Positions 9,626-34,974 of a stretch of DNA of 64,000 nucleotides are shown here, piece after piece (position 1 is the first letter of the stretch; each line of letters begins with the position of its first letter). The notes beneath the pieces are model-generated. The model saw nothing but the letters and a program-made list of their open reading frames with translations, did no database searches and had not been told where the DNA came from. The stretch is from NCBI GenBank assembly GCA_964016885.1, contig OZ024744.1, positions 40,796,001-40,860,000 on the forward strand, in the 5' to 3' direction. The position numbers and the translations under genes were made by a program. The DNA is from Eledone cirrhosa. Its lineage: Eukaryota.

Positions 9626-9630
<5 letters not shown>
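7760..9630 (+). mobile_element. 5'-truncated R4/Dong-type RLE retrotransposon, family B
   Basis: ORFs 7869-8114 (FYMDDLK) and 8111-9481 (YKYLG, CRVC, RHD, RLE). Flanked by (TAA)n on both sides. Confidence 0.9.
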
Positions 9631-9660
<30 letters not shown>

Positions 9661-12600
9661 TACCCCCCGCTAAGGCAGGCATCCTAGTACTCCCACTAAA
9701 TGAGGAAGGCATCAAAAGATATAAATAGACTGATTTGATGACCCGGTCAAAACATCAAAAAGTTAAAAATAAAAATAAAAACAGCACAGCAGCAACGAAT
9801 AACGTAAAGAAAAGAAAAAAAGAAAAGAAAAACAAACAGACAGACAGACAAGCAAAGAAAACTAAGTCAGACATTCAAACATTACATTACAATGAAACTT
9901 ATGCTTATTTTTTAAAGTTTTTGCCTATTTGTTTGTTTGTTTATTTATGTTCATCTACAGCGTGTCAGTGCCACGCTAAAATCACCGAGGGTGATGAAAT
10001 CACCGGTGGTTATGTAACCATACATTCACCAATCCTCGATAAGAGTGTTTCAATGTCGAACCTAAAAAGTTCGAATAACGGTGAAGTGGAGACTGGAATG
10101 TCATATGACAGACTCTCACCCAGCAGGTGCTCCCTGGCCTAGCAGCAGGTAACTGGCTGTCATCCAAATACTGCTGGTGTTGGAGGAAGAAGAAGGAAAG
10201 GGCCCAGAACCAACTGGACGAAATAATTGAAGATTTGGTTGATATCCTAAACTTAGTGGTAGATGAAATGAATAATGATAGTGGGAAACCTATGAACCTA
10301 AGATTTGTAGACAGTAAAAAGTTAAAAGAAACAACAGCTAAGGTAAACAAAGTCATCCCATACCTTGAGGCGAGGAGCCTTCACCAGTGCAACAATATCC
10401 TCAAAGCAACAGCAAATGCGGTGAGGAAATTACTTGGCATAAAAGCGAGAGGTAACAACAAACAAGAAAGATCAGAACCTTAGTGGAAGAAACGACTGAA
10501 TGGTCAAATCAGGGAAATGAGAAATGACATTGGAAAGCTTGAGTCCCTACTGAATGGGACACTAAAAAATATAGACACTAAAAATAGACTGGAAATAAAG
10601 TACAAACTAGGAGGAAAAAGCTAAATATTATCATAGAGGAACTGAAGCAACGCATTGTAGCAAAGAGTGCAAAAATCAGGCGATACAAGAACAGAGTCAG
10701 CCAGTATAGACAGAACCGCATGTTCGACAACAACCAGAAGATGCTCTTTGGACAGCTTCAAGGGAAAGAAAGAGACAACGACTTGATCCCTGAGGCCGAA
10801 CAAACTAAAACATTCTGGAGAGGAATATGGGAGCAGGATGTTAAACATAATGACCAGACAGTGTGGATTGAGACAATACAGAAGGAGATCAGTGAACAGG
10901 CACACCAACAAACTGATTTGAGTATCACAGTTGAAATTCTTAAGGGGCAGGCCAAAAAACTAACCAACTGGAAATCACCAGGCCCAGATGGTGTGCAGGG
11001 GTATTGGATTAAAAATATAACATCCCTCCACCCGAAACTGACAACCATGTTCAATGACTGCTTTATGTCAGGTGAGGTACCAGAGTGGTTGACAAAAGGT
11101 ACCACAGTTCTGGTAATGAAAGACCGAATCAAGGGTAATGATGTTACCAACTATAGACCTATCACATGTCTGTCCGTAATGTGGAAACTGTTGACAAGCA
11201 TTGTGTCTGAGGAAATCTACCATCACCTCCACACAAACAACTTGTTACCAGACGAACAGAAAGGATGCCGAAAGAAATCCTGTGTTACAAAGGACCAGTT
11301 ACTTATTGATAAGATGGTAATGAGGAATTGCAAGAAGAGACACACTGGTCTTGCCATGGGATGGATAGACTACAAAAAGGCATTTGACATGGTGCCTCAT
11401 TCTTGGATAACCAAAAGCCTAGAGATCTTCAGGGTGGCAGATAATATCAGACAGTTGTTGAGCAAAAGTATGAAGTCCTAGAAAACAGAGTTAACATCGG
11501 ATGGAGAATCCTTGGGAGGCGTGAAGATCAAGAGAGGTATCTTTCAGGAAGATAGTCTGTTGTTTGTCCTGCCCTGATGCTCCAGACCATTATACTGCGA
11601 AAAGTGAGAGCAGGATGCAAGTTGGGAAAGGGAGAGCTTACCATCAATCACCTCCTCTTCATGGACGATCTTAAGCTCTTCGGGAAGAGTGAGAAGGAGT
11701 TGGATGTACTTGTTGACACTGTCCGTATTTTTAGCAATGATATATGCATGCAATTTGGTATTAGTAAGTGTGGAGTCCTTATGATGAAGAGGGGTAAATT
11801 GAGCAGAAGCAACGGAATCCAGGTACCAACAGGTGAGATGATAAAGGAAATTGACTCTGAAGAAGGATACAAGTATTTGGGTGTTCTGGCGGCTGATGAC
11901 ATCAAGAACAATAAAGTGATAAGATCTGAATACATTCGGAGAGTAAGGAGCGTATTAAAATCACGTCTGAACAGTAGGAATGCCATAAGTGCAGTAAATT
12001 CCCGAGCTGTGTCTATTATTAAGTACAGTGCGGGAATAATGAGATGGAATGTTGCTGAACAAAAAGAAATGGATAGGAAGACTAGGAAGCTATTGACTAT
12101 CTACAACATGTTCCACAAGAGGAGTGATGTCGATAGACTCTACTTAAGGAGATCTGAAGGTGGAAGAGGTCTTATTAGCATAGAGGACTGTGTTCAGATG
12201 GAGAAAAACAACCTACACAAATACGTGACTGATAGTAAGGAGCCAATGCTCAGAATTGTACTGAAGGAGAGGACAATAGACCAGGGGATGTCCAGGGAGG
12301 AAATAACAACGAGGAGAAAGAGCAGCCTTCAGGAAAAATCCCTTCTTTCAGAAAACTGAGTTCAGAGATCCACAGACATGGAACTGGTTGAAAAGAGGAG
12401 ACCTTAAAAAGGCTACAGTAAGAATGCTAATGGCTGCACAAGAGCAGGCCCTCAAAACGAAGTGGGTGAAACACCATATTTACAAGGAGGAGGCTAGCCC
12501 ACTGTGCAGGGTCTGTGGAGAAAGAGAGGAGACTGTGGCTCACATTGTATCCGAGTGAAAACACCTAGCCCAGACTCACTAGAAAGGTGGAGACATGATG

Positions 12601-13150
12601 TGATGGGCAGGGTGATCCACTGGCACCTATGCAAAGTAAACCATTTGCCACATTCTGAGAAGTGGTATTAGCATAAGCCAGAGTGGGTGATAGAAAACGA
12701 TCAGGTCAAGGTGCTGTGGGATTTTAGGATACAGCCGGACAAGAAACTGGAACACAATAGATCTGATCTGGTGGTTTTGGACAAGGAAAAAAGATTGTGC
12801 CTGATTGTGGGTGTGGCCTGCCCATTCGACACGAGAGTGCAAGAGAAGGAGAGGGAGAAAATTAACCGATACCAGGACTTAAAGTGAGAGGTAAAAAGGA
12901 TTTGGAACTGCTATGAAGTCAAAGTGGTCCCGATTGTCATAGGCGCACTAGGTACTATCTCAAAAGGTTTCCAGTGATGGTTAAAGGAAATTGGCCCCGC
13001 CCCGCTTTTTGGAACACTTCAAAAGGCATGCTTGCTGGGAACAGCAATAACCCTCCAATACGTCCTGAATATTTGAGGCTGCAGGTAGTGGCTTGATATT
13101 AATTTCAACAAACTTTCCAGTTAACTAACATCAATGACTGAGACTCAAAG
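9661..13150 (+). mobile_element. Near-full-length degenerate R4/Dong element, family A (internal deletion near 10230, several stops)
   Basis: Collinear with the 20044-23436 ORF. Ends gactgagactcaaag + (AAT)n. Confidence 0.9.
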
Positions 13151-13167
13151 AATAATAATAATAATAA

Positions 13168-14832
13168 TCGGGTGGAGAATCCTTGGGAGGCGTGAAGATC
13201 AAAGAGGACTCTTCCAGGGAGATAGTTTGTTCCCTCTGCTCATTGTCCTTGCCCTGATACCCCTGACCATTATACTGTGAAAAGTGAGAGCAGGTTACAA
13301 GTTGGGAAAGGGAGAGCTTACCATCAACCACCTCCTCTTCATGGACGATCTTAAACTCTTTGAGAAGAGTGAGAAGGAGTTGGATGTGCTTGTTGACACA
13401 GTCCGTATTTTCAGCAATGATATATGTATGCAATTTGGTATTAGTAAGTGTGGAGTCCTTGTGATGACGAGGGGTAAGTTGAGCAGAAGCAACGGAATCC
13501 AGGTACCAACAGGTAAGATGATAAAGAAAATTGACACTGAAGAAGGATACAAATATTTAGGTGTTCTGGAGGCAGATGACATCAAGAACAAAAAAATGAA
13601 GGAATTGATAAGATCTGAGTACATTCGGAGAGTAAGGAGCGTATTAAAGTCACATCTGAACAGTAGGAATGCCATAAGTGCAGTAAATTCCCGAGCTGTG
13701 TCTATTAGTAGGTACATTGTGGGAATTCTGAAATGGAATGTTGCTGAACAAAACAAAATGGATAAGACGACTAGGAAGCTATTGACTATCTACAGCATGT
13801 CTCGCAAGAGGTGTGATGTCGATAGACTCTACTTAAAGTGATCTGAAGGTGGAAGAGGTCTTATCAGCATAGAGGACAGTGTTCAGATGGGGAAAAACAA
13901 CCTGCACAAGTATGGGACTGACAGTAGGGAGCCAATGCTTACAATTGTACTGAAGAAGAAGACAACAGCCAAGGGATGTAAAAGGAGGAAATAACAACAA
14001 GGAGGAAGAGCAACCTTCAGGAAAAATCCCTTCATAGTACCTTCTTTAAGAAAACAGAATTTAGAGATCCTCAGAGATGGAACTGGTTAAAAAGAGGAAA
14101 CCTTCAAAAAGCTACAGAAGGAATGCTAATGGCTGGACAAGAGCAAGCCCTCAGGACAAAGTGGGTGAAACACCATATTTACAAGGAGGCTAGCTGTGGG
14201 GAGAGAGAGGAGACTGTGGCTCACATTGTATCCGAGTGTAAACATCTAGCCCAGACTCACTATAAGGGCTGGAGATATGATGTGATAGGCAGGGTGATCC
14301 ACTGGCACCTATGTAAAGTAAATAATTTACCACATTCTGAGAAGTGGTATGAGCATAAGCCAGAGTCGGTGATAGAAAACGATCAGGTGAAGGTGCTATG
14401 GGATTTTAGGATACAGACGGACAAGAAATAAGAATACAATAGGCCTGACCTGGTGGTTTTTGACAAGGAAAAAAGATCGTGCCTGATTGTAGATGTAGCC
14501 TGCCCATTTGACACAAGAGTGCAAGAAAAGGAGAGGGAGAAAATTAACCGATACCAGGATTTAAAGTGGGAGTTAAAAAGGATTTGGAACTGCCATGAAA
14601 TCAAGGTCGTCCCGATTGTCATAGGCGCACTAGGTACTATCTCAAAGAGTTTTCAAGGATGGTTAAAGAAGATTAGTCCAGCCCTGCTTTTAGGAACACT
14701 TCAAAAGGCATGCTTGCTGGGAACAGCAAGAACCCTCCGATACGTCCTGAATATCTGAGGCTGCAAGTAGTGGCTTGATATTCATTCCAACAAACTTTCC
14801 AGTTAAATAACATCAATGACTGAGACTCAAGA
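13168..14832 (+). mobile_element. 5'-truncated R4/Dong family A copy
   Basis: RT-thumb-CCHC-RLE fragments (ORFs 13284, 14123, 14453). Starts directly after the preceding TAA tail. Confidence 0.9.
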
Positions 14833-14909
14833 ACAATAATAATGATAATAAATGTTTATTTTATCAACCCCGTAAAGATGAAAGGCAAAGTTAACCTATA
14901 ATAATAATG

Positions 14910-16480
14910 GTTTCATTTATTGGCAACAAGGGCCAACATATAGAGGACAATACAATAGACGACGACAGTGGGGGTTTTACATCATGTAAAAAATAAGAAA
15001 ACAATAACAATAAACAAGAAAAATACGACAATGAAAAATTCCCCAATAGTGGGGGGATGACCACCCAGGGTTGTTTCAGGTACCCACCAATCCTGAATCA
15101 CCCAATGTTTTAAGGGTACCCAAGAAGGGCACCCCTCTCCTACTCAAATTCACCAGCTTACAGGCGAATGATCAGAGTAGGCCCTCTCACATGGGCCATT
15201 TTCGCCACATTCACCCACTTTTCAGCAAATGTCCTGCGGGGCAGCACTTCTATCTCTACCCTCCCCTCCTTTCCAAGTGAAATTTGAAGAAGTTGATGAG
15301 GGATTGGCCGAAGAGAAAAGTGCTTGTCTTCAATCCTTTCAATCTGGTCCACCTTACCTCTTTCGTAACTGCCACCAGACAGAGGAAAGTTGCCTGCCCT
15401 TCCTGGCCAAAAGAAGGCAGTGGGTCTATCTTTAATATGGACTTGGCCGATAGCCGGATCCGTTCTACATGCGACAATAGCTGTTCGACATGACTCCACA
15501 AGTCAGTAATGCACAGACATTGGACGAGTGCATGCAGAACGGTTTCGTCGCTCTGTGTGCATCTCGGGCAGGTCCGTCTGACAGCACTTCCGTGCCTGTA
15601 GAGTTTATCTTGAACCGGCAGTGTCCCCCAGTAGCACTGTGAAGTGAGGGATTTCTGGAAGTTATCCACCATCCCCGGCTTGAAAGTCCTCTGTAAAAGA
15701 CTGGTTAGTTCAACTTCATTGAAGCCCAAAGCCTCTCCGAGTGCATCATCACACTTGTCCACCACTAATCCTCTATAGAACTCGAGAGTGGAAGTTCCAC
15801 TGATTGCATTGCCCACTTGGTAGAGGGCAGTGAGTGCTTGGCAACATTCCAGGTGCCAGTCACCCAGTCTTAGTCTCTTCTTGACCCAGGACTGCAGCTC
15901 AGTCAAACAAATGAGCTGCGGAAAGAACCATCTGATAAACGGTGACCACACCTGTTCACCATTTAGGCAGAATATCTGGAGTGCCACAGCCTCAGTGCAT
16001 GTCTGCGCATCATTAGCCAAGGCATGCCCAGCCCTTTGCGTAGAGGGTGCTGGCAGCAGATGGACCGCCTCACCAACGGGACTTGTCCTCTCCACAAGAA
16101 TTTGAAGAGGAGCCGTTCCAACATGGCGAGGTGCGGACGGGGGCAATGCACGACGGTGAGGCGGTAGTAGATGACGGACGCAATGTACACCTTCGCCACC
16201 TCTGCACGAACTTTCAGTGATAGCTTCCTCGCAGCCCATTTTTGGGTGAGACTGGCTACTCTGCTCGTTACCTCATTCCAATTCTTTTCCACCTGGAGAT
16301 CTGATCCGAACCAAACCCCGAGCAACTTTACCAGTCCATCCATTCAGCTCCCCACGACACTGTTGGATGGCATGGACTTGCCTCTCCAGGTGCTGAGCTG
16401 CAAGCCCACCGACTTTTCCGGATTAAGTTTCGCCCCTGTCAACCTTTCACATTCCATCAATAAGGTGCCGACCACCTCAT
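14910..16480 (-). mobile_element. 5'-truncated L1/Tx1-clade LINE
   Basis: GAKLNPEKS, VKLLGVWFG, WAARKLSLK, LPVQDKL..CPRC..ETVLHALVQC. Related to 3572-5495. Confidence 0.85.
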
Positions 16481-18137: not shown

Positions 18138-18845
18138 ATACAGAAGGAATGCTAATGGCTGCACAAGAGCAAGCCCTCAGGACGAAGTGGGTCAAACACC
18201 ATATTTACAAGGAGGAGGCTAGCTCACTGAGTAGGATGTATGGGGAGAGAGAGGAGACTGTGGCTCACATTGTATCCGAGTGTAAACATCTAGCCCAGAC
18301 TCACTATAAAGGCTGGAGACATGATGTGATGGGCAGAGTGATCCACTGGCACCTATGCAAAGTAAACAATTTACCAAAGTCAGTGATAGAAAACGATTAG
18401 GTGAAGGTACTGTGGGATTTTAGGATACAGACGGACAAGAAATTAGAACACAATAGGCCTGACCTGGTGGTTTTTGACAAGGAAAAAAGATCGTCCCTGA
18501 TTGTAGATGTAGCCTGCCCATTTGATACGAGGGTGCAAGAAAAGGAGAGGGAGAAAATTAACCGATACCAGGACTTAAAGTGGGAGTTAAAAAGGATTTG
18601 GAACTGCCATGAAATCAAGGTCGTCCCGATTGTCATAGGCACACTAGGTACTATCTCAAAGAGTTTCCAAGGATGGTTAAAGAAAGTTAGTCCAGCCCCG
18701 CTTTTTGGAACACTTCAAAAGGTATGCTTGCTAGGAACAGCAAGAACCCTCCGATACGTCCTGAATATCTGAGGCTGCAGGTAGCGGCTTGATATTCATT
18801 CCAACAAACTTTCCAGTTAAATAACATCAATGACTGAGACTCAAA
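18138..18845 (+). mobile_element. 5'-truncated R4/Dong family A copy in a (TAA)n tract
   Basis: EGMLMAAQEQ...RYVLNI, with TAA repeats on both sides. Confidence 0.9.
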
Positions 18846-18886
<41 letters not shown>

Positions 18887-18887
18887 T

Positions 18888-21800
18888 AAATGGAAGAAGA
18901 AGAACCCCCCCCCCCCCCCCCCTCCTCTCCTCTGGCTACACTATATAGGACAGCTAAACTCACCAACACCAGAAACTAGATACACCACCCACCCCATCAT
19001 CTGTGTACACTAAACACAACAGCATTTTCACCTTCACCGCCACCGCTCACTACGGCCATCATTACTACCACTATCCCATCACCGCCGCCACCACCCCTTG
19101 ACTCCTTCACTGCTGCTGCCACCGCTACAGCACCATCACTACAGTAATACGGCTCAAATATTCAAATATTCAACTTTGTATTGTACACTGTATATCCAAA
19201 AAAAAATAAAATGGCTATAAATGGAAGAAGAAGAACCCCCCCCCTCCTCTCCTCTGGCTACACTATATAGGACAGCGAAACTCACCAACACCAGAAACTA
19301 GATACACCACCCACCCCATCATCTGTGTACACTAAACACAACAGCATTTTCACCTTCACCGCCACCGCTCACTACGGCCATCATTACCACCACTATCCCA
19401 TCACCGCCGCCACCACCCCCTGACTCCTTCACTGCTGCTGCCACCGCTACAGCACCATCACTACAGTAATACGGTCGCATCACCGCCACCACTGCCTCGG
19501 TATCGACATCACCACCACCACTGTCTCAGTATCGCCAACGCCGCCAGTCTCTGCTGGCTACCACTTCCACATTATAGAATTCCTACTACTAACAAAGAGG
19601 AAGGCATCAAAATATATAGATAGACTCAAAAGAAAAAAGAAAAAACAAACAACAAAAGCAGCACAGCAACAACAGTAAAAAACGAGAAAAACAGAGAAAA
19701 ACAAAAACAAAAAAAGAAACCCCAAAAACGTAAAGAAAATAAGAATGAAGAGAGAAGCAGGCGGACGGACAGAGAAGAGGGGGGAAAAAGTAAAACTTAA
19801 AAAACAAAAACTAAGTCAGACATTCGAATACTACATTACAATGAAACTTATGCTTATTCATTTTTGGGGCCCTTTCTGCCCGTGTGTTTGTTTGTTTATG
19901 TGTGTCCGTATACAGCGTGGTGATAATGCCACACAAGGGTCAAGTGGGATGGCGGATCCACAGATGGCTATGTAAACATACATTCGCCAATCCTCGATAA
20001 GAGTGTTTAAATATCGAACATAAACAGTTCGAATAACGGTGAAATGGAGACTAGAACGTCATGTGACAGACTCTCACCCAACAGGTGCCCCCTGGCTCAG
20101 CAGCAGGAACCTGACTGTCAACCAAATACTGCTGAAGTTGGAGGAAGAAGAAGAAGGAAAGGGGCCAGAACCAACTGGACGAAAGAATTGAATAGAACTG
20201 TTATGCAATGCTACCTGAAAAGTAACCCCAAGGAGAGGGGCTACAGGAGACGGATGCATAACATCTGGAACGAGATTGGTTTATTTAAATTAGATGAACA
20301 AAAATTGGCCGGGCAGGCTCGGGTAATAAGAACTAATGGGTGGATAAGCGAGCTGGAACTGGAGGAACTGAGCAGAGAGAATGGCTTGGAGATGGCGGGT
20401 GTAGTATGCCAGACAAGCGAGCCGGCGGGAAATGAAGGTGAGGAGGTCCTGAGAACGGAGGAACCACCCGAAGCAGACAATGATCTGAATACTGAGATAA
20501 ATAATACCTGGAACAGAGATACGGCCACTGAGGAGATGAATGCTGACGGGCTAGGACAAGATTCGGTTGACATCCTAAATTTAGTGGTAGATGAGTTGAA
20601 CAATGATAGTGGGAGACCTATGAACCTAAGATTTGTAGACAGGAAAAAGTTAAAAGAAACAACAGCTAAGGTAAACAAAGTCATCCCATACCTTGAGGCG
20701 AGGAGTCTTCACCAGTGCAACAATATCCTCAAAGCAACAGCAAATACGGTGAGGAAACTACTTGGTATAAAAGCGAGAGGAAACAACAGACAAGAAAGAG
20801 CAGAGCCGTGGTGGAAGAAGCGACTGAGTGGGCAAATCGGGGAAATGAGAAATGACATAGGAAAGCTTGAGTCACTACTGAATGGGACACTAAAAAACAT
20901 AGGCACTAAAAATAGACTGGAAATAAAATACAAAACTAGGAGTAAAAAGCTAAATATTATCATAGAGGAATTGAAGCAACGCATTGTAGCAAAGAGTGCC
21001 AAAATCAGGCGATACGAGAACAGAGTCAGTCAGTATAAACAGAACCGCATGTTCGACAACAACCAGAAGATGCTGTTTGGACAGCTTGAGGGGAAAGAAA
21101 GAGGCAACGACTTGATCCCTGGGGCGGAACAAGCTAAAACATTCTGGAGAGGAATATGGGAGCAGGATGTTAGACACAATGCCCAGGCAGGGTGGATTGA
21201 GACAGTACAGAGGGAGATCGGTGAGCAGGCACAGCAACAGACTGATTTGAGTATCACAGTTGAAACTCTTAAGGGGCAAGCCAAAAAACTAACCAACTGG
21301 AAATCACCAGGCCCAGATGGTGTGCAGGGGTATTGGATTAAACATTTAACATCCCTCCACCCGAAGCTGACGGCCATGTTCAATGACTGCTTGGTGTCGG
21401 GTGAGGTGCCAGAGTGGTTGACAAAAGGTACCACAGTTCTGATAATGAAAGACCGAATCAAGGGTAATGATGTTACCAACTATAGACCTATCACATGTCT
21501 GCCCGTAATGTGGAAACTGTTGACGAGCATTGTGTCTGAGGAAATCTACCATCACCTCCACACAAACAACTTGTTGCCGGACGAACAGAAAGGATGCCGA
21601 AAGAAGTCACGTGGTACAAAGGACCAGTTGCTTATTGATAAGATGGTAATGGGGAATTGCAGGAGGAGACACACTGATCTTGCCATGGGATGGATAGACT
21701 ACAGAAAGGCATTTGACATGGTGCCTCATTCCTGGATCACCAAAAGCCTGGAGATCTTCAGGGTGGCAGATAACATCAGACAGTTGCTGGGCAGGAGTAT

Positions 21801-23510
21801 GGGGTCCTGGGAGACAGAGTTGACATCAACTGGAGTATCCTTGGGAAGCGTGAAGATCAAGAGAGGTATCTTCCAGGGAGATAGCCTGTCCCCTCTGTTG
21901 TTTGACCTTGCCCTGATGCCCTTGACCATTATGCTGCGAAAAGTGAGAGCAGGATACAAGTTGGGAAGGGGAGAGCTTACCATCAATCACCTCCTCTTCA
22001 TGGACGATCTTAAGCTCTTCGGGAAAAGTGAGAAGGAGTTGGATGTGCTTGTTGACACTGTCCGTATTTTCAGCAGTGATATATGTATGCAGTTTGGTAT
22101 TGGTAAATGTGGAGTCATTGTGATGAGGGGGGGTAGGTTGAGCAGAAGTAACGGGATCCAGATACCAACAGGTGAGATGATAAAGGAAATTGACTCTGAG
22201 GAAAGATACAAGTATTTGGGCGTTCTGGAGGCTGATGGCATAAAGAACAAAAAAATGAAGGAATTGTTAAGAACTGAATACATTCGGAGAGTAAGGAGCG
22301 TATTGAAGTCACATCTGAACAGCAGAAATGCCATAAGCGCAGTAAATTCCCGAGCTGTGTCTATTATTAGGTACAGTGCGGGAATTCTGAGATGGAATGT
22401 TGCTGAACAAAAAGAAATGGATAGGAAGACTAGGAAGCTATTGACTATCTACAACATGTTCCACAAGAGGAGTGATGTCGATAGACTCTACCTAAGGAGA
22501 TCTGAGGGTGGAAGAGGTCTTATCAGCATAGAGGACTGTGTTCAGATGGAGAAAAACAACCTATACAAATACGTGACCTATAGTAAGGAGCCAATGCTCA
22601 GAGCTGTACTGAAGGAGGGGACAGTAGGCCAGGGGATACCCAAGGAGGAAATAACATCAAGGAGGAAGAGCAGCCTTAAGGGAAAATCCCTTCATAGTAC
22701 CTTCTTTGAGAAAACTGAATTTAGAGATCCACAGACATGGAACTGGTTGAGAAGAGGAGACCTCAAAAAGGCTACAGAAGGAATGCTAATGGCTGCGCAG
22801 GAGCAGGCCCTCAAAACGAAGTGGTTGAAGCACCATATCTACAAGGAGGAGGCTAGCCCACTGTGCAGGATCTGTGGAGAGAGAGAGGAGACTGTGGCTC
22901 ACATTGTGTCCGAGTGTAAACACCTAGCCCAGACCCACTATAAGGGCTGGAGACACGATGTGATGGGCAGGGTGATCCACTGGCACCTGTGCAAAGTAAA
23001 CAATCTACCACATTCTGAGAAATGGTATGAGCATAGGCCAGAGGCTGTGATGGAGAACAGTCAGGTGAAGGTGCTGTGGGATTTTAGGATACAGACGGAC
23101 AAAAAACTGGAACACAATAGACCTGACCTGGTGGTTGTGGACAAAGAAAAAAGATCGTGCCTGATTGTGGATGTGGCCTGCCCGTTCGACACGAGAGTGC
23201 AAGAGAAGGAGAGGGAGAAAATTAACCGATACCAGGACCTAAAGTGGGAGGTGAAAAGGATTTGGAACTGCCATGAAGTCAAAGTGATCCCGATTGTCAT
23301 AGGCGCACTGGGGACTATCTCCAAAGGTTTCCAGGGATGGTTAAAGAAAATCGGCCCCTTCACGCTTTTTGGAACGCTTCAAAAGGCATGCTTGCTTGGA
23401 ACGGCAAGAACCCTCCGATACGTCCTGAATATCTGAGGCTGCAGGTAGTGGCTTGATATTCAATCCAACGGACTTTCCAGTTAACCAACATCAATGACTG
23501 AGATTCAAGG
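18888..23510 (+). mobile_element. Full-length R4/Dong family A element with long 5' UTR
   Basis: Bounded by (TAA)n at 18848-18885 and 23511-23562. Single intact ORF. 5' UTR shared with 23720-25195. Confidence 0.9.
20044..23436 (+). CDS. R4/Dong-clade reverse transcriptase with CCHC finger and restriction-like endonuclease (1130 aa, intact)
   Basis: KSPGPDG, YRPITCL, QGDSLSP, FMDD, YKYLG, CRIC..H..C, RHD, RPD..VDVACP..EK motifs. Confidence 0.95.
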   Translation: METRTSCDRLSPNRCPLAQQQEPDCQPNTAEVGGRRRRKGARTNWTKELNRTVMQCYLKSNPKERGYRRRMHNIWNEIGLFKLDEQKLAGQARVIRTNGWISELELEELSRENGLEMAGVVCQTSEPAGNEGEEVLRTEEPPEADNDLNTEINNTWNRDTATEEMNADGLGQDSVDILNLVVDELNNDSGRPMNLRFVDRKKLKETTAKVNKVIPYLEARSLHQCNNILKATANTVRKLLGIKARGNNRQERAEPWWKKRLSGQIGEMRNDIGKLESLLNGTLKNIGTKNRLEIKYKTRSKKLNIIIEELKQRIVAKSAKIRRYENRVSQYKQNRMFDNNQKMLFGQLEGKERGNDLIPGAEQAKTFWRGIWEQDVRHNAQAGWIETVQREIGEQAQQQTDLSITVETLKGQAKKLTNWKSPGPDGVQGYWIKHLTSLHPKLTAMFNDCLVSGEVPEWLTKGTTVLIMKDRIKGNDVTNYRPITCLPVMWKLLTSIVSEEIYHHLHTNNLLPDEQKGCRKKSRGTKDQLLIDKMVMGNCRRRHTDLAMGWIDYRKAFDMVPHSWITKSLEIFRVADNIRQLLGRSMGSWETELTSTGVSLGSVKIKRGIFQGDSLSPLLFDLALMPLTIMLRKVRAGYKLGRGELTINHLLFMDDLKLFGKSEKELDVLVDTVRIFSSDICMQFGIGKCGVIVMRGGRLSRSNGIQIPTGEMIKEIDSEERYKYLGVLEADGIKNKKMKELLRTEYIRRVRSVLKSHLNSRNAISAVNSRAVSIIRYSAGILRWNVAEQKEMDRKTRKLLTIYNMFHKRSDVDRLYLRRSEGGRGLISIEDCVQMEKNNLYKYVTYSKEPMLRAVLKEGTVGQGIPKEEITSRRKSSLKGKSLHSTFFEKTEFRDPQTWNWLRRGDLKKATEGMLMAAQEQALKTKWLKHHIYKEEASPLCRICGEREETVAHIVSECKHLAQTHYKGWRHDVMGRVIHWHLCKVNNLPHSEKWYEHRPEAVMENSQVKVLWDFRIQTDKKLEHNRPDLVVVDKEKRSCLIVDVACPFDTRVQEKEREKINRYQDLKWEVKRIWNCHEVKVIPIVIGALGTISKGFQGWLKKIGPFTLFGTLQKACLLGTARTLRYVLNI

Positions 23511-23522
23511 AATAACAATAAC

Positions 23523-23562
<40 letters not shown>

Positions 23563-23563
<1 letters not shown>

Positions 23564-26500
23564 GGGAAGAAGACACACATGGTGGATAGGTCGAGAAATC
23601 GCTCCCGTAAGTTTTGATTTTTTAACATATTTAAATCAATTGTGAAATAACAATTCTTAGTACAAATGTTGCATAAAACATCCAGCTTGAGTCCCAAAAA
23701 ATTCGGATCCACAATATATTGTTATATCGCTCAAATATTCAATTTTGTATTATACATTTTATATTCAAAAAAGAAAATGGTTATAAATGGAAGAAAACCC
23801 CCTCTGTCTACACTATATAGAACAGCCAAATAACAGCAATTTCGCCAACATCAGAAACTAGATACACCACCTACCCCATCACCCCTCTGTGTACACTAAA
23901 CACAACAGCCAGATAACGGCAATTTCACCACCACCACCACCAATCTCAGCATAATAATAATAATTACTATTACTATTGCCTCAAGTTTTAGTTTTAACAA
24001 AATGTTTAATTCCAATATTAAGAAAAATATGTCAACACATATACGCGACTAACGATAATTTCACTAAAGATAATTTCACCACCAATACCACCACCACTAC
24101 CACGATGAAAACTCTGGTCAAGTCGACTCAAATTTCTACTCCAACTTCAACACCATCACTACAGTAATACGACCACATCATCACCACCACCACTGCCTCA
24201 TTATCGCTACCGACGCTACTCTCTCCCACTACCTCTTGCTAGTTGCTGCTGGCACAGCACCGCCACCACCACCGCCGCCGCTGCCTCAATATCACTACCG
24301 CCGCTATTCTCTCCCGCTACCTCCTGCTACATTGTAGAATTCTCACTAAAAGAGGAAAACATCAAAATATATAAATAGACTGAATTGATGACCCGGTCAA
24401 AATAAAAAAAAAAACAATAATCAAAATCAAGTTTTAGTTTTAACAAAATGTTTAATTCCAATATTAAGAAAAATATGTCAACACATATACGCGACTAATG
24501 ATAATTTTACTAAAGATAATTTCACCACCGGTGCCACCACCACTGCCACGATGAAAACTCTGGTCAAGTCGACTCAAATTTCTACTCCATCTTCAACACC
24601 ATCGCTACAGTAATACGACCACATCACCACCACCGCTGCCTCACTATCGCTACCGCCGCTATTCTCTCCCAATACCTCCTGCTAGTTGCTGCTGGCACAG
24701 CACCGCCATGCCGCTGCCTCATTGTCACTACCGCCGCTATTCTCTCCCGCTAGCCCCTGATACATTGTAGAATTCTCACTAAAAGAGGAAGGCACCAAAA
24801 TATATAAATAGACTGAATTGATGACCCGGTCAAAATCAAAAAAAAAACAAAGATCAAAATCAAAGCAGCTCAGCAACAACGAAAAACTTAAAGGAAATAA
24901 AAATGAAGAGAAAAACAAACGGACAGACAGAGAAGGGAAGGGAAAAACTAAGTCAGACATTCAAACACTACATTACAATGAAACTTATGCTTATTCATTT
25001 TTGGGGTTTTTTCTGATTGTTTGTTTGTTTGTTTATTTGGGTTCGTCTACAGCGTGATAATGCCACACAAAAGTCACGTGGAGTGACGAAACCACCGGAG
25101 ACAAATAATTCACCGGTGGTTATGTAACCATACATTCACCAATCCTCGATAAGAGTGTTTAAATGTCGAACCTAAACAGTTCGAATAACGGTGAAATGGA
25201 GACTAGAATGTCATGTGACAGACTCTCACCCAACAGGTGCTCCCTGGTTCAGCAGCAGGGACCTGGCTGTCAACCAAATACGGCTGGTGTCGGAGGAAGA
25301 AGAAGAAAAGGGACCAGAACCAACTGGACGAAATAATTGAATAGAACTGTCATGCAATGTTACCTGAAGAGTAACCCCAAGGAGAAAGGCTATAGGAAAA
25401 GGATACATAACATCTGGAACGAGATTGGTCCATTTAAATTAGATGAACAAAAACTGGCCGGCAGGCTGGGGTAATAAGAACTAATGGGTGGATAAGCGAG
25501 CTGGTACTGGAGGAACTGAGTACAGAGATTAGCTTGGAGATGGAGGGTGGAGTATGCCAGGCAAACGAGCCAGTGGGAAATGAAGGTGAAGAGGTCGAGA
25601 GAACGGAGGAACCACCCGAAACAGACAATGATCTGAATGCTGAGATAAATAATACCTGGAACAGAGATACGGCCACTGAGGAGATGAATGCTGACGGGCT
25701 AGGACAAGATTTGGTTGATATCCTAAACTTAGTGGTAGATGAAATGAACAATGATAGTGGGAAACCTATGAACCTAAGATTTGTAGACAGGAAAAAGTTA
25801 AAAGAAACAACAGCTAATGTAAACAAAGTCATCCCATACCTTGAGGCGAGGAGCCTTCACCAGTACAACAATATCCTCAAAGCAACAGCAAATGCGGTGA
25901 GGAAACTACTTGGTATAAAAGCGAAAGGTAACAACAGACAAGAAAGAGCAGAGCCTTGGTGGAAGAAACGACTGAGTGGTCAAATCAGGGAAATGAGAAA
26001 TGACATTGGAAAGCTTGAGTCCCTACTGAATGGGACACTAAAAAACATAGACACTAAAAATAGACTGGAAATAAAGTACAAAACTAGGAGGAAAAAGCTA
26101 AATATTATCATAGAGGAACTGAAGCAACGCATTGTAGCAAAGAGTGCAAAAATCAGGCGATACAAGAACAGAGTCAGCCAGTATAGACAGAACCGCATGT
26201 TCGACAACAACCAGAAGATGCTCTTTGGACAGCTTGAAGGGAAAGAAAGAGACAACGACTTGATCCCTGAGGCCGAACAAACTAAAACATTCTGGAGAGG
26301 AATATGGGAGCAGGATGTTAAACATAATGACCAGGCAGTGTGGATTGAGACAATACAGAAGGAGATCAGTGAACAGGCACACCAACAAACTGATTTGAGT
26401 ATCACAGTTGAAACTCTTAAGGGGCAGGCCAAAAAACTAACCAACTGGAAATCACCTGGCCCAAATGGTGTGCAGGGGTATTGGATTAAAAACATAACAT

Positions 26501-28655
26501 CCCTCCACCCGAAACTGACAACCATGTTCAATGACTGCTTGATGTCAGGTGAGGTACCAGAGTGGTTGACAAAAGGTACCACAGTTCTGATAATGAAAGA
26601 CCGAATCAAGGGTAATGATGTTACCAACTATAGACCTATCACATGTCTGTCCGTAATGTGGAAACTGTTGACAAGCATTATGTCTGAGGAAATCTACCAT
26701 CACCTCCACACAAACAACTTGTTACCGGACGAACAGAAAGGATGCCGAAAGAAGTCACGTGGTACAAAGGACCAGTTACTTATTGATAAAATGGTAATTA
26801 GGAATTGCAAGAGGAGACACACTGGTCTTGCCATGGGATGGATAGACTACAAAAAGGCATTTGACATGGTGCCTCATTCTTGAATCACCAAAAGCCTGGA
26901 GATCTTCAAGGTGGCAGATAATATCAGACAGTTGTTGGGCAAAAGTATGAAGTCCTGGGAAACAGAGTTAACATCAACTGGAGAATCCTTGGGAAGCGTG
27001 AAGATCAAGAGAGGTATCTTCCAGGGAGATAGTCTGTCCCCTCTGTTGTTTGTCCTTGCCCTGATGCCCCTGACCAGTGTACTGCGAAAAGTGAGAGCAG
27101 GATACAGGTTGGGAAAGGGAGGGCTTACCATCAATCACCTCCTCTTCATGGACGATCTTAAGCTCTTCGGGAAGAGTGAGAAGGAGTTGGATGTGCTTGT
27201 TGACACTCCGTATTTTCAGCAATGATATATGTATGCAATTTGGTATTAGTAACTGTGGAGTCATTGTGATGAGGAGGGGTAGGTTGAGCAGAAGTAACAG
27301 AATCCAGATACCAACAGGTGAGATGATAAAGGAAATTGACTCTGAGGAAGGATACAAGTATTTGGGCGTTCTGGAGGCTGTTGACATCAAGAACAAAATA
27401 ATGAAGGAATTGATAAGAACTGAATACCTTCGGAGAATAAGGAGCATATTAAAGTCACATCTGAACAGTAGGAATGCCATAAGTGCAGTAAATTCCCGAG
27501 CTGTGTCTATTATTAGGTACAGTGTGGGAATTCTGAGATGGAATGTTGCTGAACAAAAAGAAATGGATAGGAAGACTAGGAAGCTATTGACTATCTACAA
27601 CATGTTCCACAAGAGGAATGATGTCGATAGACTCTACTTAAGGAGATCTGAAGGTGGAAGAGGTCTTATCAGCATAGAGGACTGTGTTCAGATGGAGAAA
27701 AACAACCTACACAAATACGTGACTGATGGTAAGGAGCCAATGCTCAGAACTGTACTGAAGGAGGGGGACAATAGACCAGGGATGTCCAAGGAGGAAATAA
27801 CATCAAGGAGAAAGAGCAGCCTTCAGGAAAAATCCCTTCATAGTACCTTCTTTGAGAAAACTGAATTTAGAGATCCACAGACATGGAACTGGTTGAAAAG
27901 AGGAGACCTTAAAAAGGCTACAGAAGGAATATTAATGGCTGCGCAGGAGTAGGCCCTCAAAACGAAGTGGTTGAAACACCACATTTACAAGGAGGAGGCT
28001 AGCCCACTGTGCAGGATCTGTGGAGAGAGACAGGAGACTGTGGCTCACATTGTATCCGAGTGTAAACACCTAGCCCAGACTCACTATAAGGGCTGGAGTC
28101 ATGATGAGATGGGCAGGGTGACCCACTGGCACCTATGCAAAGTAAACAATTTACCACATTCTGAGAAATGGTATGAGCATAAGCCAGAGTCGGTGATAGA
28201 AAACGATCAGGTGAAGGTGCTGTGGGATTTTAGGATACAGACGGACAAGAAACTGGAACACAATAGACCTGACCTGGTGGTTTTGGACAAAGAAAAAAGA
28301 TTGTGCCTGATTGTGGATGTGGCCTGCCCATTCGACACGAGACTGCCAGAGAAGGAGAGGGAGAAAATTAACCGATACCAGGACTTAAAGTGGGAGGTAA
28401 AAAGGATTTGGAACTGCCATGAAGTCAAAGTGATCCCGATTGTCATAGGCGCACTAGGGACTATCTCAAAAAGTTTCCAGGGATGGTTAAAGAAAATTGG
28501 CCCCTTCACGCTTTTTGGAACGCTTCAAAAGGCATGCTTGCTGGGAACAGCAAGAACCCTCCGATACGTCCTGAATATCTGAGGCTGCAGGTAGTGGCTT
28601 GATATTCATTTCAACAAACTTTCCAGTTAACTAACATCAATGACTGAGACTCAAA
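23563..28655 (+). mobile_element. Full-length but disrupted R4/Dong family A element
   Basis: ORF pieces 25534-26883, 26911-27225, 27176-27952, 27971-28582. Followed by (GAA)n. Confidence 0.9.
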
Positions 28656-28656
28656 A

Positions 28657-28703
28657 AAGAAGAAGAAGAAGAAGAAGAAGAAGAAGAAGAAGAAGAAGAA
28701 GAA

Positions 28704-29014: not shown

Positions 29015-29445
29015 TTGGCAGTATCAGTAGAGTACCAGACACCATACTTAGTGGCATATACATATGACCCTTTACATTCTAAGTGCAAATCCCACCGAGG
29101 TTAGCTTTGCCTTTCATCCTTACGGAGTCTATAAAATAAAGTACCAGTCACACATTGGGGTGGGATTAATTGACTTTCAACTCCCCAAAAACTTATTGGC
29201 CTTGTGCCTTAATCAGAAAACGCTATAATCATTATTATTGGATTGGCAGAATTGGTAGGGCATGCTTTGCAGCATCAGGTTATGACCCTTTACATTCTGA
29301 GTTCAAATCCTGCCGAGGCTGGCTTTGCTATTCATCCTTACGGGGGTCTATAAAATAATGTACCAGCAATTCACTAGCGTGGAATTAATCGACTTTCGCC
29401 TCCTCCAAAATTATTGGCCTTGTGCCTTAATCAGAAAACATTATC
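29015..29445 (+). mobile_element. Two tandem Nin/Deu-domain tRNA-SINEs
   Basis: tggcag..t.ggtag heads, gagttcaaatcc, ttcatccttacgg.gtctataaaataa.gtacc in both copies. Confidence 0.8.
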
Positions 29446-29457
29446 ATTTTTATTATT

Positions 29458-29993
29458 CTTTGAGTCTCAGTCATTGATGTTAGTTAACTGGAAAGTTTGT
29501 TGAAATGAATATCAAGTTGCTACCTGCAGCCTCAGACATTCAGGACGTATCGGAGGGTTCTTGCTGTTCCCAGCAAGCATGCCTTTTGAAGTGCTCCAAA
29601 AAGCGGGGCTGGACTAATCTTCTTTAACCATCCTTGGAAACTCTTTGAGATAGTACCTAGTGCACCTATGACAATCGGGACGACTTTGACTTCATGGCAG
29701 TTCCAAATCCTTTTTACCTCCCACTTTAAGACCTGGTATCAGTTAATTTTCTCCCTTTCCTTTTCTTGCACTCTCGTGTCAAATGGGCAGGCTACATCTA
29801 CAATCAGGCACGATCTTTTTTCCTTGTCCAAAACCACCAGGTCAGGCCTATTGTGTTCCAGTTTCTTGTCCATCCACATCCTAAAATCCCATAGCACCTT
29901 CACCTGATCATTTTCTATCACCGACTCTGGCTTATGCTCATACCACTTCTCAGAATGTGGTAAATTGTTTACTTTGCATAGGTGCCAGTGGAT
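29458..29993 (-). mobile_element. 5'-truncated R4/Dong family A copy, opposite orientation
   Basis: Inverse of the family A 3' end, flanked by (TTA)n. Confidence 0.9.
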
Positions 29994-30393
29994 CCATTAT
30001 TATTATTATTATTATTATTATTAATTAGTGGCTTTTTACCTGGAAGTATACTGCACACACCAGCATGAATATATATTGATTCTGTTTTTCAACTTAAATC
30101 TGTCAGACATACCATTTCCAAATGAAATTTCTCTTTGTGTTAATTTATTCGATAGAATCTGGTCAGATTTTACATTTATTGATTATTTTCGATCTCCTGG
30201 GCTGCAGAAGATTGTACAAACATATTGAGCTTCAAATTTCCTTGGCATATCTCATCCAAGTTTGATCTCTAGACTTGTTACACTTGTTTGTATATATATC
30301 ATCATCATCATCGTTTAATATCCATCTTCCACACTGACATTCTGATTCAACCTGGAATAACTTATATATATATATATACAGTATATATATATT

Positions 30394-30548: not shown

Positions 30549-30581
<33 letters not shown>

Positions 30582-30846
30582 GCGGCGATGAATTAGTTTT
30601 GCGAGGTTTTTTATATGAAATCGTGTGTCGAAACAGATATTGTTATATTTGGGGAGGGTCATATTTGCGTAATATTGCCAGAATTAATAACAGAACACAC
30701 TCACTGTTTGGTTGGTTTTCGCTTCTCGCTGTCTTTTATATATATATATCTGCGATCTAACTTACTCGGTCCTCAATGTTGCCATTGACTGACCGGCGGT
30801 CAAAAATAATACAGATACAATATAGACAAACACATATATATATAGT

Positions 30847-30889
30847 TTACATAAATCTTTCGTTGCACATCTGCAACATCGTCAGTGGT
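30847..30889 (-). ncRNA. Hammerhead ribozyme motif in 3' pLTR
   Basis: cca-CTGACGA-t-gttgca-gatg-tgcaac-GAAA-gattta-tg. 6-bp stem II; stems I/III weak. Confidence 0.6.
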
Positions 30890-31157
30890 GTTATATTCAT
30901 TGTTCCTCCTGTTGTGTTGTATGTCTACGCCATTTTTTTTGTTCAGTCTGTCTATATATTTATTTATTTATTTGCTTGTTTGTTTATCTTATTTTATTTT
31001 GTCTTCTTTGCGCATGCGTTTGCGTGTGTGTATAGTGTTATGTGTGATGTGTGACTAGTGTGTATCGTGTTGTGTCTGCTGGGTGACTAGTGTGTGTTTA
31101 TGTGCTTGTGTATGTATTTATTTATCTTATTTTATTTAATTTAATTTACTTATTTAT

Positions 31158-34100
31158 TTATACTTCTCTTAGGTCAGTGTTGTTTGTTTGGGTGTTGTTG
31201 TTGTTCCACTCATTCTTTCTGTTTAGCTTTGGTTTTCTAATTTCTATTTCACTGGCCTCTCTGATTTGCCTATCTGCTGGGTCATTCCTATGTTTAGATA
31301 TTATTCTAATTTCTATGTTGTCTATGTTACCGTCATGATGTTGTCTAGCATGTTCGTATAGTACTGACCCGTTTTTTCGTCCTTTTAGTTCCCCCCAGTG
31401 TTGGTCTATCCTTTCACCTATGCTACGAGCTGTCTCACCTATGTATGTTGTTGTCGTGTTTCTGCAAGTACCCTCTGTACATCTTATGCTATAGACTACG
31501 TTTCTAGTTTTACAGTTTATCCGGGGGTTCACCTTACATATGATACATTTCCTATTGGTACAGTGGGTTTTCTTAAAAGGGTAGGTTTTGCTGATCAGGG
31601 ATTTTATGGTGGTTCCTGGCTTTTCTACCACCTTTATTTTTAAGTGGGTCTTTCTCAGGGCCTTTCTACACTGGTTAGCTAATTTCCCTCCAGGGGTGGC
31701 GTCCACAAACATGACACTCTGATATCTCTGGTTGTCGTACCATGATGTGGCCTTCCCTATCTTATGTCTAGCCCTATCTAAGCTATTCCATGATTTGCTC
31801 CTGTATAGTGGGCAAATTCCTTTCATGTCCAGTTCTGTGAGGGTCTTATACTTTTCCATGGCTCCTTCGTATACTCTGACTCTGTCTCTTTGGTTGTAGC
31901 CAGAGAACTGCATGCGGTTGATGAAGTGTTGGATGTGTCCTTCCATTTCTGTTGGGTCGCACATGCTGGACACATTCTTCATCACTCGTACCAAATCTGC
32001 GATCAGAATATTAAACTTAGCACTACTGGACATTGCTGAGTTTTTGAGTATCAGGTATTTGGAGGCCATGGGTTTAGCATAGTGTGAGTGGAGAATTTGG
32101 GCTCTCTCGTCTATAGTGTTAATCCAGAGTTCTGTGTCTAATACAGGTAGTCTATTGTTAGGGTGTTTGGAAGGGAAGTCTATAGTTACAGTTATACTCT
32201 GGTGTATGGAATTAGCTATCTGCTGGATGCTTTCCATCGTGCTACGTTCTAAATCAAACTTGTTAGTGCTCTCTAGTGGGGGTGTTCTTATAACTATATT
32301 GATATCGTCTACATAACGAGAGTACATGATGAGGTCTATGGAGCTTTCATTAAGGAGATCTTTAAGTCTCCTTTCCCACCATACCATGAAAAGGTTGGCA
32401 ACATCGCCAGCTATGCTGACGCCGATGGCTGCTCCCTCATTTTGGGTGTAGATTTTCTCATTGAACTTAAATATGTGGCCCTTTAGGGTAGTTTTGATAC
32501 TAGCCCCTATTGCATGTGCGACCATTTTTCTTACCTGATCAGTGTTTTGGGGGGTCCGTATAGCTTTGGTCCACCCAATCCACCTTCCTATGGGAGTCTT
32601 TTTAGCCATTGAGGTTATGGTGGGGGGTCTACCTCTTATAGGTCTACTAGGGCAGAAACATCTAAGGTCATGGCTGTCTAGGTAGTCAGTGTCGTAGGTA
32701 AGTCTAAGTAGGAGGCCTAGTTCGTCTGTGTCGACGTCGCAGAACTCCACCTCACTCTCAATGATCATCTCCACACATCTTTTCACAGCAAAATCAATGT
32801 TAATGGATGGGTACAGTGACACCACATCCATGCTGCCTATTATGCAGTTGGATAGGCTCCTGTTTTTGTTGCACTCACTGATTCTGCTGAGGAGGTCCTC
32901 TGTACTTTCACATACATCTGGGGACATCTTGATTATGGGGCGTATAACCATTGAGAGGAAGTAGGAGATCCTGTAGTTGCTAGCTATATTAGCTCCGCAT
33001 ACAGGTCTTGTTGGTGGTCCTATTGTCGGGTCGTCGACTGTCTTGTGGTCTTTGCGGAGCCCATACAAGGGTGGTATGCCATTGTTAGACGCCTGGAAGT
33101 TGTTGGCAGTGCGTCTGCTTGGCTTTAGGATGTCAGTCCACATCATCATGTGAGCGTTGAGGATTTTTTCTCTCCCATCGTGTGTTAGTTGTGCAACTTC
33201 GCTCGTGTTGGTGATGTGGGGTTGCATTGCCTCGATGTAGTTCGGCATGCTATCTATTGACATCCTACCAGACTTATCTGTGGGTAGACACACTACCTCA
33301 CCATCCCTTGTGCGCTGCTTGAGGCTAACCAAGCCTTCTACAGGTTTTATCCCAAGTTGTTGGGCCTCTGGTCTGCTCTGTCTCATAGTGTACCTGTCTA
33401 CTACTTGTCTAATCTTATTTCTAGCTATGGTGAACTGTGCCTCCGTCTCGTCATCTATTTGTTGTGGTATGCAAACTCTTTTATTAAAGGGTAACCTCGT
33501 AGGATAGATATTACCCATCTTATATGTTTTGTCAGCTGGGTTGAAAAATAGTTTCTCTAAGGGGTTGTCGTTATTTCTATCGTCATAGTTGTGTGTGTTG
33601 CTATTATTGTTATCATGGTGGTTGTTGTTGTTTCTATCCTTAGCATTAATATTATTATTGTTATGATTGCTAGATGTATTGTTGTTTACTTCACCGTTAT
33701 TGTTGTTGTTGTTACTGCTATTTCTACCATTGTGGTTGTTACTATTATTATGTTTCTTGTTTTTGTTGATGTTGCTACATGTACTATTTCCATTATTACC
33801 ACTGTGGTTATTGTTGTTGTTGTTGTTCGTATTGTTACCGTTATTACTACTGTGGTCACTGTTGCTGTGTCTGTGGTTAACGTTTCTATTATTATTATTA
33901 TTGTGGTTGTTGTTGTTCTGTCTATCGCTAGTATTATTACCATTATCACTATTTCTCACTTTCCTGCCATTGTTATGGTTATGGCTGTTATTTCTATACC
34001 CAGAGTTATTGTTTATATTACTACTACCGTTATTATTGTTGTTGTTGTTTACCTTTGCATTCCAACGTATTTTTGTGAAACACTTTTCCAGCTCCGTTTT

Positions 34101-34790: not shown

Positions 34791-34824
34791 ATTTGCGTAA
34801 TATTGCCAGAATTAATAACAGAAC

Positions 34825-34876
34825 ACACTCACTGTTTGGTTGGTTTTCGCTTCTCGCTGTCTTTTATATATATATA
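34825..34876 (-). promoter_or_regulatory. Candidate TATA box and initiator in pLTR upstream of the PLE ORF
   Basis: Minus strand TATATAAAAG, then ~30 nt later aCAGTg. ATG follows ~40 nt further. Confidence 0.4.
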
Positions 34877-34974
34877 TCTGCGATCTAACTTACTCGGTCC
34901 TCAATGTTGCCATTGACTGACCGGCGGTCAAAAATAATACAGATACAATATAGACAAACACATATATATATAGT

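What the first reader, a model, noticed from the sequence alone, without database searches (positions are those of the whole stretch)
19745..23510. Intact retrotransposon copy with pervasive A-to-G changes: possible ADAR-hyperedited RNA fixed in the genome
Seen: compared with sibling copies at 9661-13150 and 23563-28655, differences are dominated by sense-strand A>G, often clustered. At 21361-21410 all six differences vs 26508-26558 are A>G. At 21781-21830 there are six A>G and one T>C. The same bias appears in the 5' UTR (agagaagcaggcggacgg vs agaaaaacaaacggacag) and 3' UTR (caacggac vs caacaaac). Many changes recode conserved residues (DYKKAF>DYRKAF, ADDIK>ADGIK, KSMKS>RSMGS, D/E/S/R>G, T>A, I/M>V), so G is the derived state. 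A>G cannot create a stop codon, consistent with the ORF staying open. Known: ADAR A-to-I editing reads as G and is extensive in coleoid cephalopods. Inference: an edited transcript was reverse-transcribed and integrated, giving heritable RNA-editing-driven mutagenesis or defence of a LINE. Caveats: some T>C and CpG-type differences exist, several sites have a 5' G (disfavoured by ADAR), and a polishing or sequencing artefact could give the same pattern.
Basis: partly seen in the sequence, partly recalled or inferred. Interest (0 to 1): 0.88.

Follow-up and report, generated by a model that had tools for sequence, protein, structure and literature searches.

The report
Retrotransposon lineage drifting from A to G
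This is not one heavily edited copy but one of thousands of near-identical young copies of an active jumping gene whose lineage gained A-to-G and T-to-C changes step by step, likely from its own copying errors, with RNA editing probably adding a few local clusters.

Summary
The A>G differences are real, but this copy is not a hyperedited RNA. It is an intact Dong/R4-type LINE that inserts into (TAA)n. It is 99.4-99.8% identical to its 29 nearest copies and differs from their majority at 6 sites, 1 of them A>G. About 2,000 copies share one of the G alleles. Intermediates span 0-100% of the derived alleles, so the changes were fixed stepwise under purifying selection (dN/dS about 0.26). On that source lineage synonymous A>G (29) and T>C (18) are 12- and 7-fold above the host's neutral spectrum, and per base they do not differ significantly (p=0.09). 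Each new insertion carries about 2.5e-4 A>G and 2.0e-4 T>C per base, close to published R2 reverse-transcriptase error rates. ADAR likely adds a minority: synonymous A>G avoids 5' G (1/80) and A>G clusters locally (p 0.0003-0.007). That context did not replicate in 75 further young copies, and no hyperedited copy was found in 472 aligned segments. Earlier notes of this scan report ADAR-type scars in other LINEs of this genome and in other genomes.

The parts
18847..18886 (+). (TAA)n array, target site upstream of the focal element and tail of the preceding 3' fragment
   Evidence: 59 of 74 5'-truncated young copies have >=4 TAA in the 30 nt upstream
18887..20043 (+). 5' UTR (5' end inferred from the TAA array and homology to the 5' region of sibling C); holds a 268-bp internal duplication and an A>G hotspot near 19755-19768 that was fixed in at least four steps
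   Evidence: no Rfam match at E<=1
20011..23436 (+). Single open frame, 1141 aa stop-to-stop (first ATG 20044): RT (residues 487-738, FMDD), CCHC knuckle and PD..D restriction-like endonuclease motif at the C terminus
   Evidence: best PDB matches are R2 proteins, E 1.5e-30; CCHC and PD..D motifs read from the sequence, names recalled
21366..21408 (+). Cluster of six lineage-fixed A>G, five of them fixed within one short ladder interval
   Evidence: codon-aware p=0.0003
21787..21822 (+). Six A>G and one T>C, fixed in four successive steps
23437..23510 (+). 3' UTR; lineage-fixed AA>GG at 23470-71; young copy L405 has three more private A>G at 23467, 23468, 23479
23511..23563 (+). (TAA)n tail and target of the next copy
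   Evidence: 85 of 88 young 3' ends are followed by TAA repeats
23564..28657 (+). Older sibling C, member of the subfamily at the base of the ladder (nearest copies about 98% identical), ORF broken
9661..14849 (+). Older siblings A (9661-13168) and D (13167-14849), used as outgroup
29440..29994 (-). Antisense 3' fragment of the same family, a possible source of dsRNA in a read-through transcript (inferred)

Best explanation
The window copy is an ordinary young member of an active (TAA)n-targeting Dong/R4-type LINE whose source lineage fixed A>G and T>C changes stepwise, likely through misincorporation by its own reverse transcriptase at each jump, with ADAR editing probably adding a minority of clustered A>G. 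Shown: subfamily ladder, polarity, purifying selection, excess of both transitions on propagating branches, and an age-independent A>G and T>C load on single copies. Inferred: a C put in place of T during first-strand synthesis reads as sense A>G, the same error in the second strand (or G opposite U) reads as sense T>C; at 2-2.5e-4 per base per jump the lineage needs roughly 300-400 serial retrotranspositions, while host DNA mutation contributes little. Inferred and less certain: low-level ADAR editing of the element's RNA supplies part of the A>G at hotspots.
For: 29 nearest copies 99.4-99.8% identical, 6 differences of the focal copy from their majority, 1 A>G. 2,006, 4,926 and 796 genome-wide motif matches. 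Continuous ladder of intermediates; A>G 27/51, 19/45, 23/61 in the three thirds of the ladder. dN/dS about 0.26. Synonymous sites: A>G 29 against 2.35 expected from the host's neutral spectrum, T>C 18 against 2.45; G>A 8 against 6.3 and C>T 5 against 6.1 (these two helped set the scale). Side-branch variants in >=4 copies: A>G 13, T>C 9, G>A 4, C>T 1 of 40. Poisson fit over 406 segments in six age classes: intercept A>G 2.5e-4 (p=8e-4), T>C 2.0e-4 (p=0.02), none positive for G>A or C>T. PMC11331410 (passages, sections 10 and 12): an R2 RT makes 1.17e-4 substitutions per base in cDNA and 1.01e-4 in the second strand, 47% at thymine, cytosine most often misincorporated, i.e. about 2e-4 per T by my arithmetic. 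ADAR part: synonymous A>G by 5' base T 9/43, A 13/106, C 6/62, G 1/80, p=0.0009, the U>A>C>G order of PMC3113232, absent from neutral singletons (49 of 161 at 5' G, p=0.001); A>G pairs within 10 nt 24 against 12.7, codon-aware p=0.004, other changes 21 against 20.4; five co-timed A>G in 40 nt, p=0.0003, other changes p=0.33; host encodes A_deamin domains.
Against: No measurement of this RT's errors and no RNA data. The reading of the R2 spectrum as product-strand T>C rests on the paper's text; its figures and supplements were not seen. The intercept could include assembly errors. RT error alone does not explain the 5' G avoidance (retroviral RTs showed no context bias in second-strand errors, PMC6009661 passages). 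Against the ADAR part: 5' A/T preference was strong in the first 54 young copies (p=7e-5) but absent in 75 new ones (p=1.0; pooled p=0.07); over all 69 sites the codon-aware 5' G deficit is only 12 against 17.9, p=0.03, and no 3' G preference; synonymous A>G alone do not cluster; co-timing of neighbours also holds for non-A>G changes, so blocks can be inherited together; several tests were chosen after seeing the data.
Confidence: 0.7

Rival explanations
1. ADAR is the main source of the lineage's A>G: low-level editing of the sense RNA is copied into new source elements at many jumps, and the RT supplies mainly the T>C.
For: Synonymous 5' order matches ADAR exactly, and RT errors without context would put about 6-8 of 29 at 5' G instead of 1. 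A>G-only hotspots in the 5' UTR, at 21366-21408, 21794-21822 and the 3' UTR. Slightly higher predicted pairing around changed A (0.52 against 0.47, p=0.009). Side-branch A>G shared by >=2 copies prefer 5' A/T (24/582 against 13/622, p=0.045). Squid editing is concentrated in repeats (PMC9068888 passages).
Against: T>C is 7-fold in excess and cannot come from editing of the copied strand; A>G and T>C loads at insertion are about equal; context fails to replicate; 0 of 472 aligned segments with >=5 A>G in 100 nt; only 1 of 130 young copies has a small private cluster.
Confidence: 0.2
2. GC-biased gene conversion between copies, or selection for G/C at silent sites, drives the lineage toward G and C.
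For: Both A>G and T>C are weak-to-strong; GC rose from 43.9% to 45.9%; synonymous A>C plus T>G are 4 against about 1 expected; mosaic copies exist.
Against: A fixation bias of the size needed (about 8-fold) predicts about 8.6 GC-neutral synonymous transversions; 1 was seen (my arithmetic, P about 0.002). The excess is already present in private changes of new insertions.
Confidence: 0.06
3. One reading: one hyperedited transcript was integrated here, or founded the subfamily in a single burst.
For: Raw A>G dominance and clusters against older siblings.
Against: Shared with thousands of copies; intermediates at every level; constant A>G share along the ladder.
Confidence: 0.01
4. Sequencing, polishing or transcription-coupled-repair artefact.
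For: None found.
Against: Copies on both strands (1006 and 1000); contigs of other runs carry the same alleles, e.g. a 1244-nt contig in X5 with 3 differences over 21769-22400 and 835 nt in X4 with 1; private changes in resident copies are strand-symmetric in five of six comparisons (one intermediate class showed A>G above T>C, p=0.007).
Confidence: 0.03

Closest known systems
Dong elements (R4 clade non-LTR retrotransposons; PMC3812793 and PMC3774820, passages)
   Same: Single RT ORF closest to R2 proteins, C-terminal CCHC and restriction-like endonuclease motifs, insertion into (TAA)n, head-to-tail arrays.
   Different: No named Dong sequence was compared; best database homologue 64% identical and unnamed; no 5' ribozyme detected by Rfam.
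R2 reverse-transcriptase error spectrum in vitro (Roll-Seq, PMC11331410; passages, sections 10 and 12)
   Same: Transition-dominated, mostly at thymine with cytosine put in, about 1e-4 per base on both strands; matches type and size of the load found here.
   Different: Measured for a different enzyme in vitro; here it is an in vivo evolutionary record, with a 5' context and clustering that the passages do not describe.
ADAR A-to-I editing of dsRNA (PMC3113232, passages; cephalopod repeats PMC9068888, passages)
   Same: 5' U>A>C>G order at synonymous sites, local A>G clusters on the sense strand.
   Different: Density is about 6% of A over hundreds of inferred rounds, not a one-molecule burst; T>C is nearly as high; no RNA evidence.
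APOBEC DNA editing of LTR retrotransposons fixed in genomes (PMC4866542, passages)
   Same: A change made during the replication cycle is inherited in genomic copies.
   Different: There single copies are hypermutated and damaged; here no copy is hypermutated and the changes ride on the active lineage under purifying selection.

Membership tests
Dong / R4-clade RLE LINE | Single ORF with non-LTR RT | tested here: met
   RVT_1 E 3.9e-23; R2 structures best, E 1.5e-30
Dong / R4-clade RLE LINE | C-terminal CCHC knuckle plus PD-(D/E)xK endonuclease, no APE domain | tested here: met
   Motifs read in the translation (motif names recalled); zf-RVT weak hit at 901-973 and no APE family
Dong / R4-clade RLE LINE | Insertion into (TAA)n | tested here: met
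   59 of 74 5' junctions, 85 of 88 3' junctions; Dong target per PMC3812793
Dong / R4-clade RLE LINE | RT phylogeny within R4 with named Dong elements | not tested
   No named reference among the homologues
Dong / R4-clade RLE LINE | HDV-like ribozyme at the 5' end | tested here: inconclusive
   No Rfam match in 18800-25000; no custom model built
ADAR-hyperedited genomic copy | Dense A>G private to the copy relative to its nearest relatives | tested here: not met
   1 A>G among 6 differences
ADAR-hyperedited genomic copy | A>G far above T>C per base | tested here: not met
   5.6% against 3.8%, p=0.09; young singletons 5.6 against 5.1 per 1e4
ADAR-derived substitutions (lineage level) | 5' neighbour U>A>C>G | tested here: inconclusive
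   Met at lineage-fixed synonymous sites; weak over all sites; not replicated in new young copies
ADAR-derived substitutions (lineage level) | Local clustering of A>G | tested here: met
   not for synonymous sites alone
ADAR-derived substitutions (lineage level) | Double-stranded substrate | tested here: inconclusive
   Local pairing slightly higher; no strong hairpin at the clusters or 3' UTR, z about -0.5 to -1; inverted copies exist
ADAR-derived substitutions (lineage level) | Same sites edited in RNA of the host | not testable with these tools
   No run on record as RNA; contigs only

The most novel reading that the evidence does not exclude
Host RNA editing acts as a heritable mutator of a living retrotransposon: light ADAR editing of its RNA is ratcheted into successive source elements, recoding its protein and UTRs without inactivating it, so a defence enzyme feeds the element's evolution.
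Probability: 0.45. Interest if true: 0.7.

Novelty: new member of a known kind. Interest (0 to 1): 0.4.

Why it matters
The ladder of about 5,000 copies separates mutations made at each jump from mutations made while resident, and so gives an in vivo estimate of a LINE's per-jump error rate and spectrum and of the number of serial jumps. It also warns that comparing a young LINE copy with older neighbours can mimic ADAR hyperediting. If the ADAR share is real, RNA editing contributes to the sequence evolution of an active element and not only to dead copies. My paper searches (listings only) showed no report of either point, but the library lacks most subscription journals.

Tried and rejected
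Search for hyperedited copies: 0 of 472 three-letter alignments (1.39 Mb) with >=5 A>G in 100 nt, 0 of 526 for T>C; 14 G>A hits were not reproduced in the ordinary alignments for the loci that printed (3 of 11 looked up) and several lie at alignment edges next to TAA arrays, so I dropped them. ADAR context in private changes of young copies looked strong and failed in the independent set. Co-timing of nearby changes is not specific to A>G. Side-branch A>G are not significantly close to lineage-fixed A>G (p 0.11-0.33). Folding of the 3' UTR and cluster regions gave no significant structure. Rfam gave nothing. No RNA holder listed; X24 raw reads gave no test. Low-depth near-identical contigs in runs labelled as other organisms (X5, X6, X8, X9; depth about 4-80 against over 1e5 in X1 and X2) were not taken as evidence of horizontal transfer. 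Rows left out: segments under 400 nt; segments with too few diagnostic sites (n<40, 60 or 90 by analysis); 35 and then 41 duplicate segments merged; one of an identical pair dropped (L393); 19500-19800 excluded from counts because of indels. Loci were chosen by similarity; those by exact motif, first 100 places on contig C1 only. Earlier-findings look-ups by sequence and by place returned nothing.
Full report
What the element is. Window 18887-23563 holds a full-length non-LTR retrotransposon between two (TAA)n arrays. One frame of 1141 aa (20011-23436) carries an RT domain and, at the C terminus, CCHC and PD..D motifs (motif names recalled). Its best solved relatives are R2 proteins. 59 of 74 5'-truncated young copies start directly after TAA repeats and 85 of 88 end in them, the target described for Dong elements of the R4 clade (passages). 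This explains the head-to-tail array in the window. An earlier AI note calls this genome an octopus; I did not test that. The genome encodes A_deamin domains at four places.

The observation. Against window siblings A and C the focal copy has 154 polarised differences: 69 A>G, 27 T>C, 15 G>A, 8 C>T, 35 transversions. Contigs of independent public runs carry the same alleles, so they are not a polishing artefact.

The copy is not unique. Its 29 nearest fetched copies are 99.4-99.8% identical; it differs from their majority at 6 sites, one A>G. A motif holding the derived G at 21366 has 2,006 matches, a motif shared by old and young copies 4,926, and a youngest-specific motif 796. From 423 fetched loci I aligned 441 segments. 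They form a continuous ladder from 0 to 100% of the derived alleles. A>G makes up 27 of 51, 19 of 45 and 23 of 61 changes in successive thirds. There was no founding burst.

The lineage was under purifying selection. With 67 older segments as outgroup, 157 substitutions lie on the source lineage: A>G 69/1238, T>C 30/780, G>A 19/918, C>T 8/623; A>G against T>C p=0.09. In the ORF 68 are synonymous and 67 not, dN/dS about 0.26. None of 167 near-invariant columns in 55 homologues is altered. 54 of 86 young copies that span the ORF have no stop or deletion (insertions not scored). This is an expanding element, not a disarmed one.

Where the bias arises. Resident copies decay mainly by G>A and C>T. 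Scaled to that spectrum, synonymous A>G on the source lineage is 29 against 2.35 expected and T>C 18 against 2.45. Side branches shared by four or more copies show the same: A>G 13, T>C 9, G>A 4, C>T 1 of 40. Fitting private changes against transversions over 406 segments in six age classes gives an age-independent load of 2.5e-4 per A (p=8e-4) and 2.0e-4 per T (p=0.02), with no positive load for G>A or C>T. An R2 RT in vitro makes about 1e-4 substitutions per base on each strand, 47% at thymine, with cytosine most often put in (PMC11331410; passages and sections 10 and 12; figures and supplements not seen). Read on the product strand this gives sense A>G from the first strand and sense T>C from the second, at about the size seen. 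Dividing the synonymous excess (9.1% of A, 5.7% of T) by the per-insertion load gives about 370 and 290 serial jumps; this is my arithmetic and inferred. GC-biased conversion predicts about 8.6 GC-neutral synonymous transversions where 1 was seen (arithmetic).

What is left for ADAR. For: lineage-fixed synonymous A>G by 5' base are T 9/43, A 13/106, C 6/62, G 1/80 (p=0.0009), the order given for human ADARs (PMC3113232 passages), while neutral singletons show no such avoidance. A>G cluster with each other (24 pairs within 10 nt against 12.7, p=0.004) and other changes do not. At 21366-21408, 134 copies have all A, 182 all G, and the commonest intermediates already have four or five G (6 and 11 copies); two copies with one or two of these G may be steps or recombinants. 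Young copy L405 has three private A>G in 12 nt of the 3' UTR. Against: the 5' A/T preference seen in 54 young copies was absent in 75 new ones, though most private changes are host mutations, so power is low; over all 69 sites the 5' G deficit is modest (p=0.03) and there is no 3' G preference; synonymous sites alone do not cluster; neighbours of any type tend to fix together; no hyperedited segment in 472; no strong hairpin; no RNA data. I put the chance that ADAR contributed some of the fixed A>G at a little over one half, and that it is the main source at about one fifth.

Comparison and verdict. The element works like, and meets the tested features of, Dong/R4; its RT was not placed on a tree with named members. 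It fails the test for an ADAR-hyperedited copy. Earlier notes of this scan report dense ADAR-type scars in CR1 and RTE copies of this same genome and elsewhere; I did not check them, and this family showed none. My searches (listings only) found no paper on A>G and T>C drift along a LINE source lineage. PMC6009661, PMC13586686, PMC9068888 and PMC4866542 were seen as passages. The headline claim is refuted; the remaining value is an in vivo record of per-jump mutation with a possible, unproven editing component. Interest 0.4.

Noticed in passing
window 30579-36081, minus strand ORF 31158-34811: Intact 1217-aa ORF flanked by 1375-bp direct repeats 99.9% identical (30579-31953, 34707-36081). No Pfam hit; RT-like and GIY-YIG-like motifs suggest a very young Penelope-like element (recalled, untested). 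A 625-bp inverted copy of 32992-33616 lies at 36137-36758.
   Followed up: partly
window 6067-7488 and 8225-9638: Second TAA-tailed family, two copies 95.8% identical, 36% identical in protein to the focal C-terminal half: another Dong-like lineage sharing the array.
   Followed up: partly
window 19769-19779 and 19720-19728 in loci such as L208, L232, L205, L242, L200: Boundaries between G and A runs and between C and A runs in the 5' UTR shift among young copies, which looks like slippage during copying.
   Followed up: no
L002 (same contig, about 128 kb downstream, opposite strand): Shares two of the focal copy's rare alleles (21905, 22204), so it is a close sister in inverted orientation.
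   Followed up: no
runs X5, X6, X8, X9 on window 20044-23512: Near-identical young and intermediate haplotypes at low depth in runs labelled as other organisms; carry-over is the simplest reading, transfer between species was not tested.
   Followed up: partly
L030, L029, L135: Mosaic copies with older alleles in one part, showing recombination or template switching between ladder steps.
   Followed up: partly
window 15256-16272, minus strand: 338-aa frame with a zf-RVT domain, unrelated to the focal protein by BLASTP.
   Followed up: no
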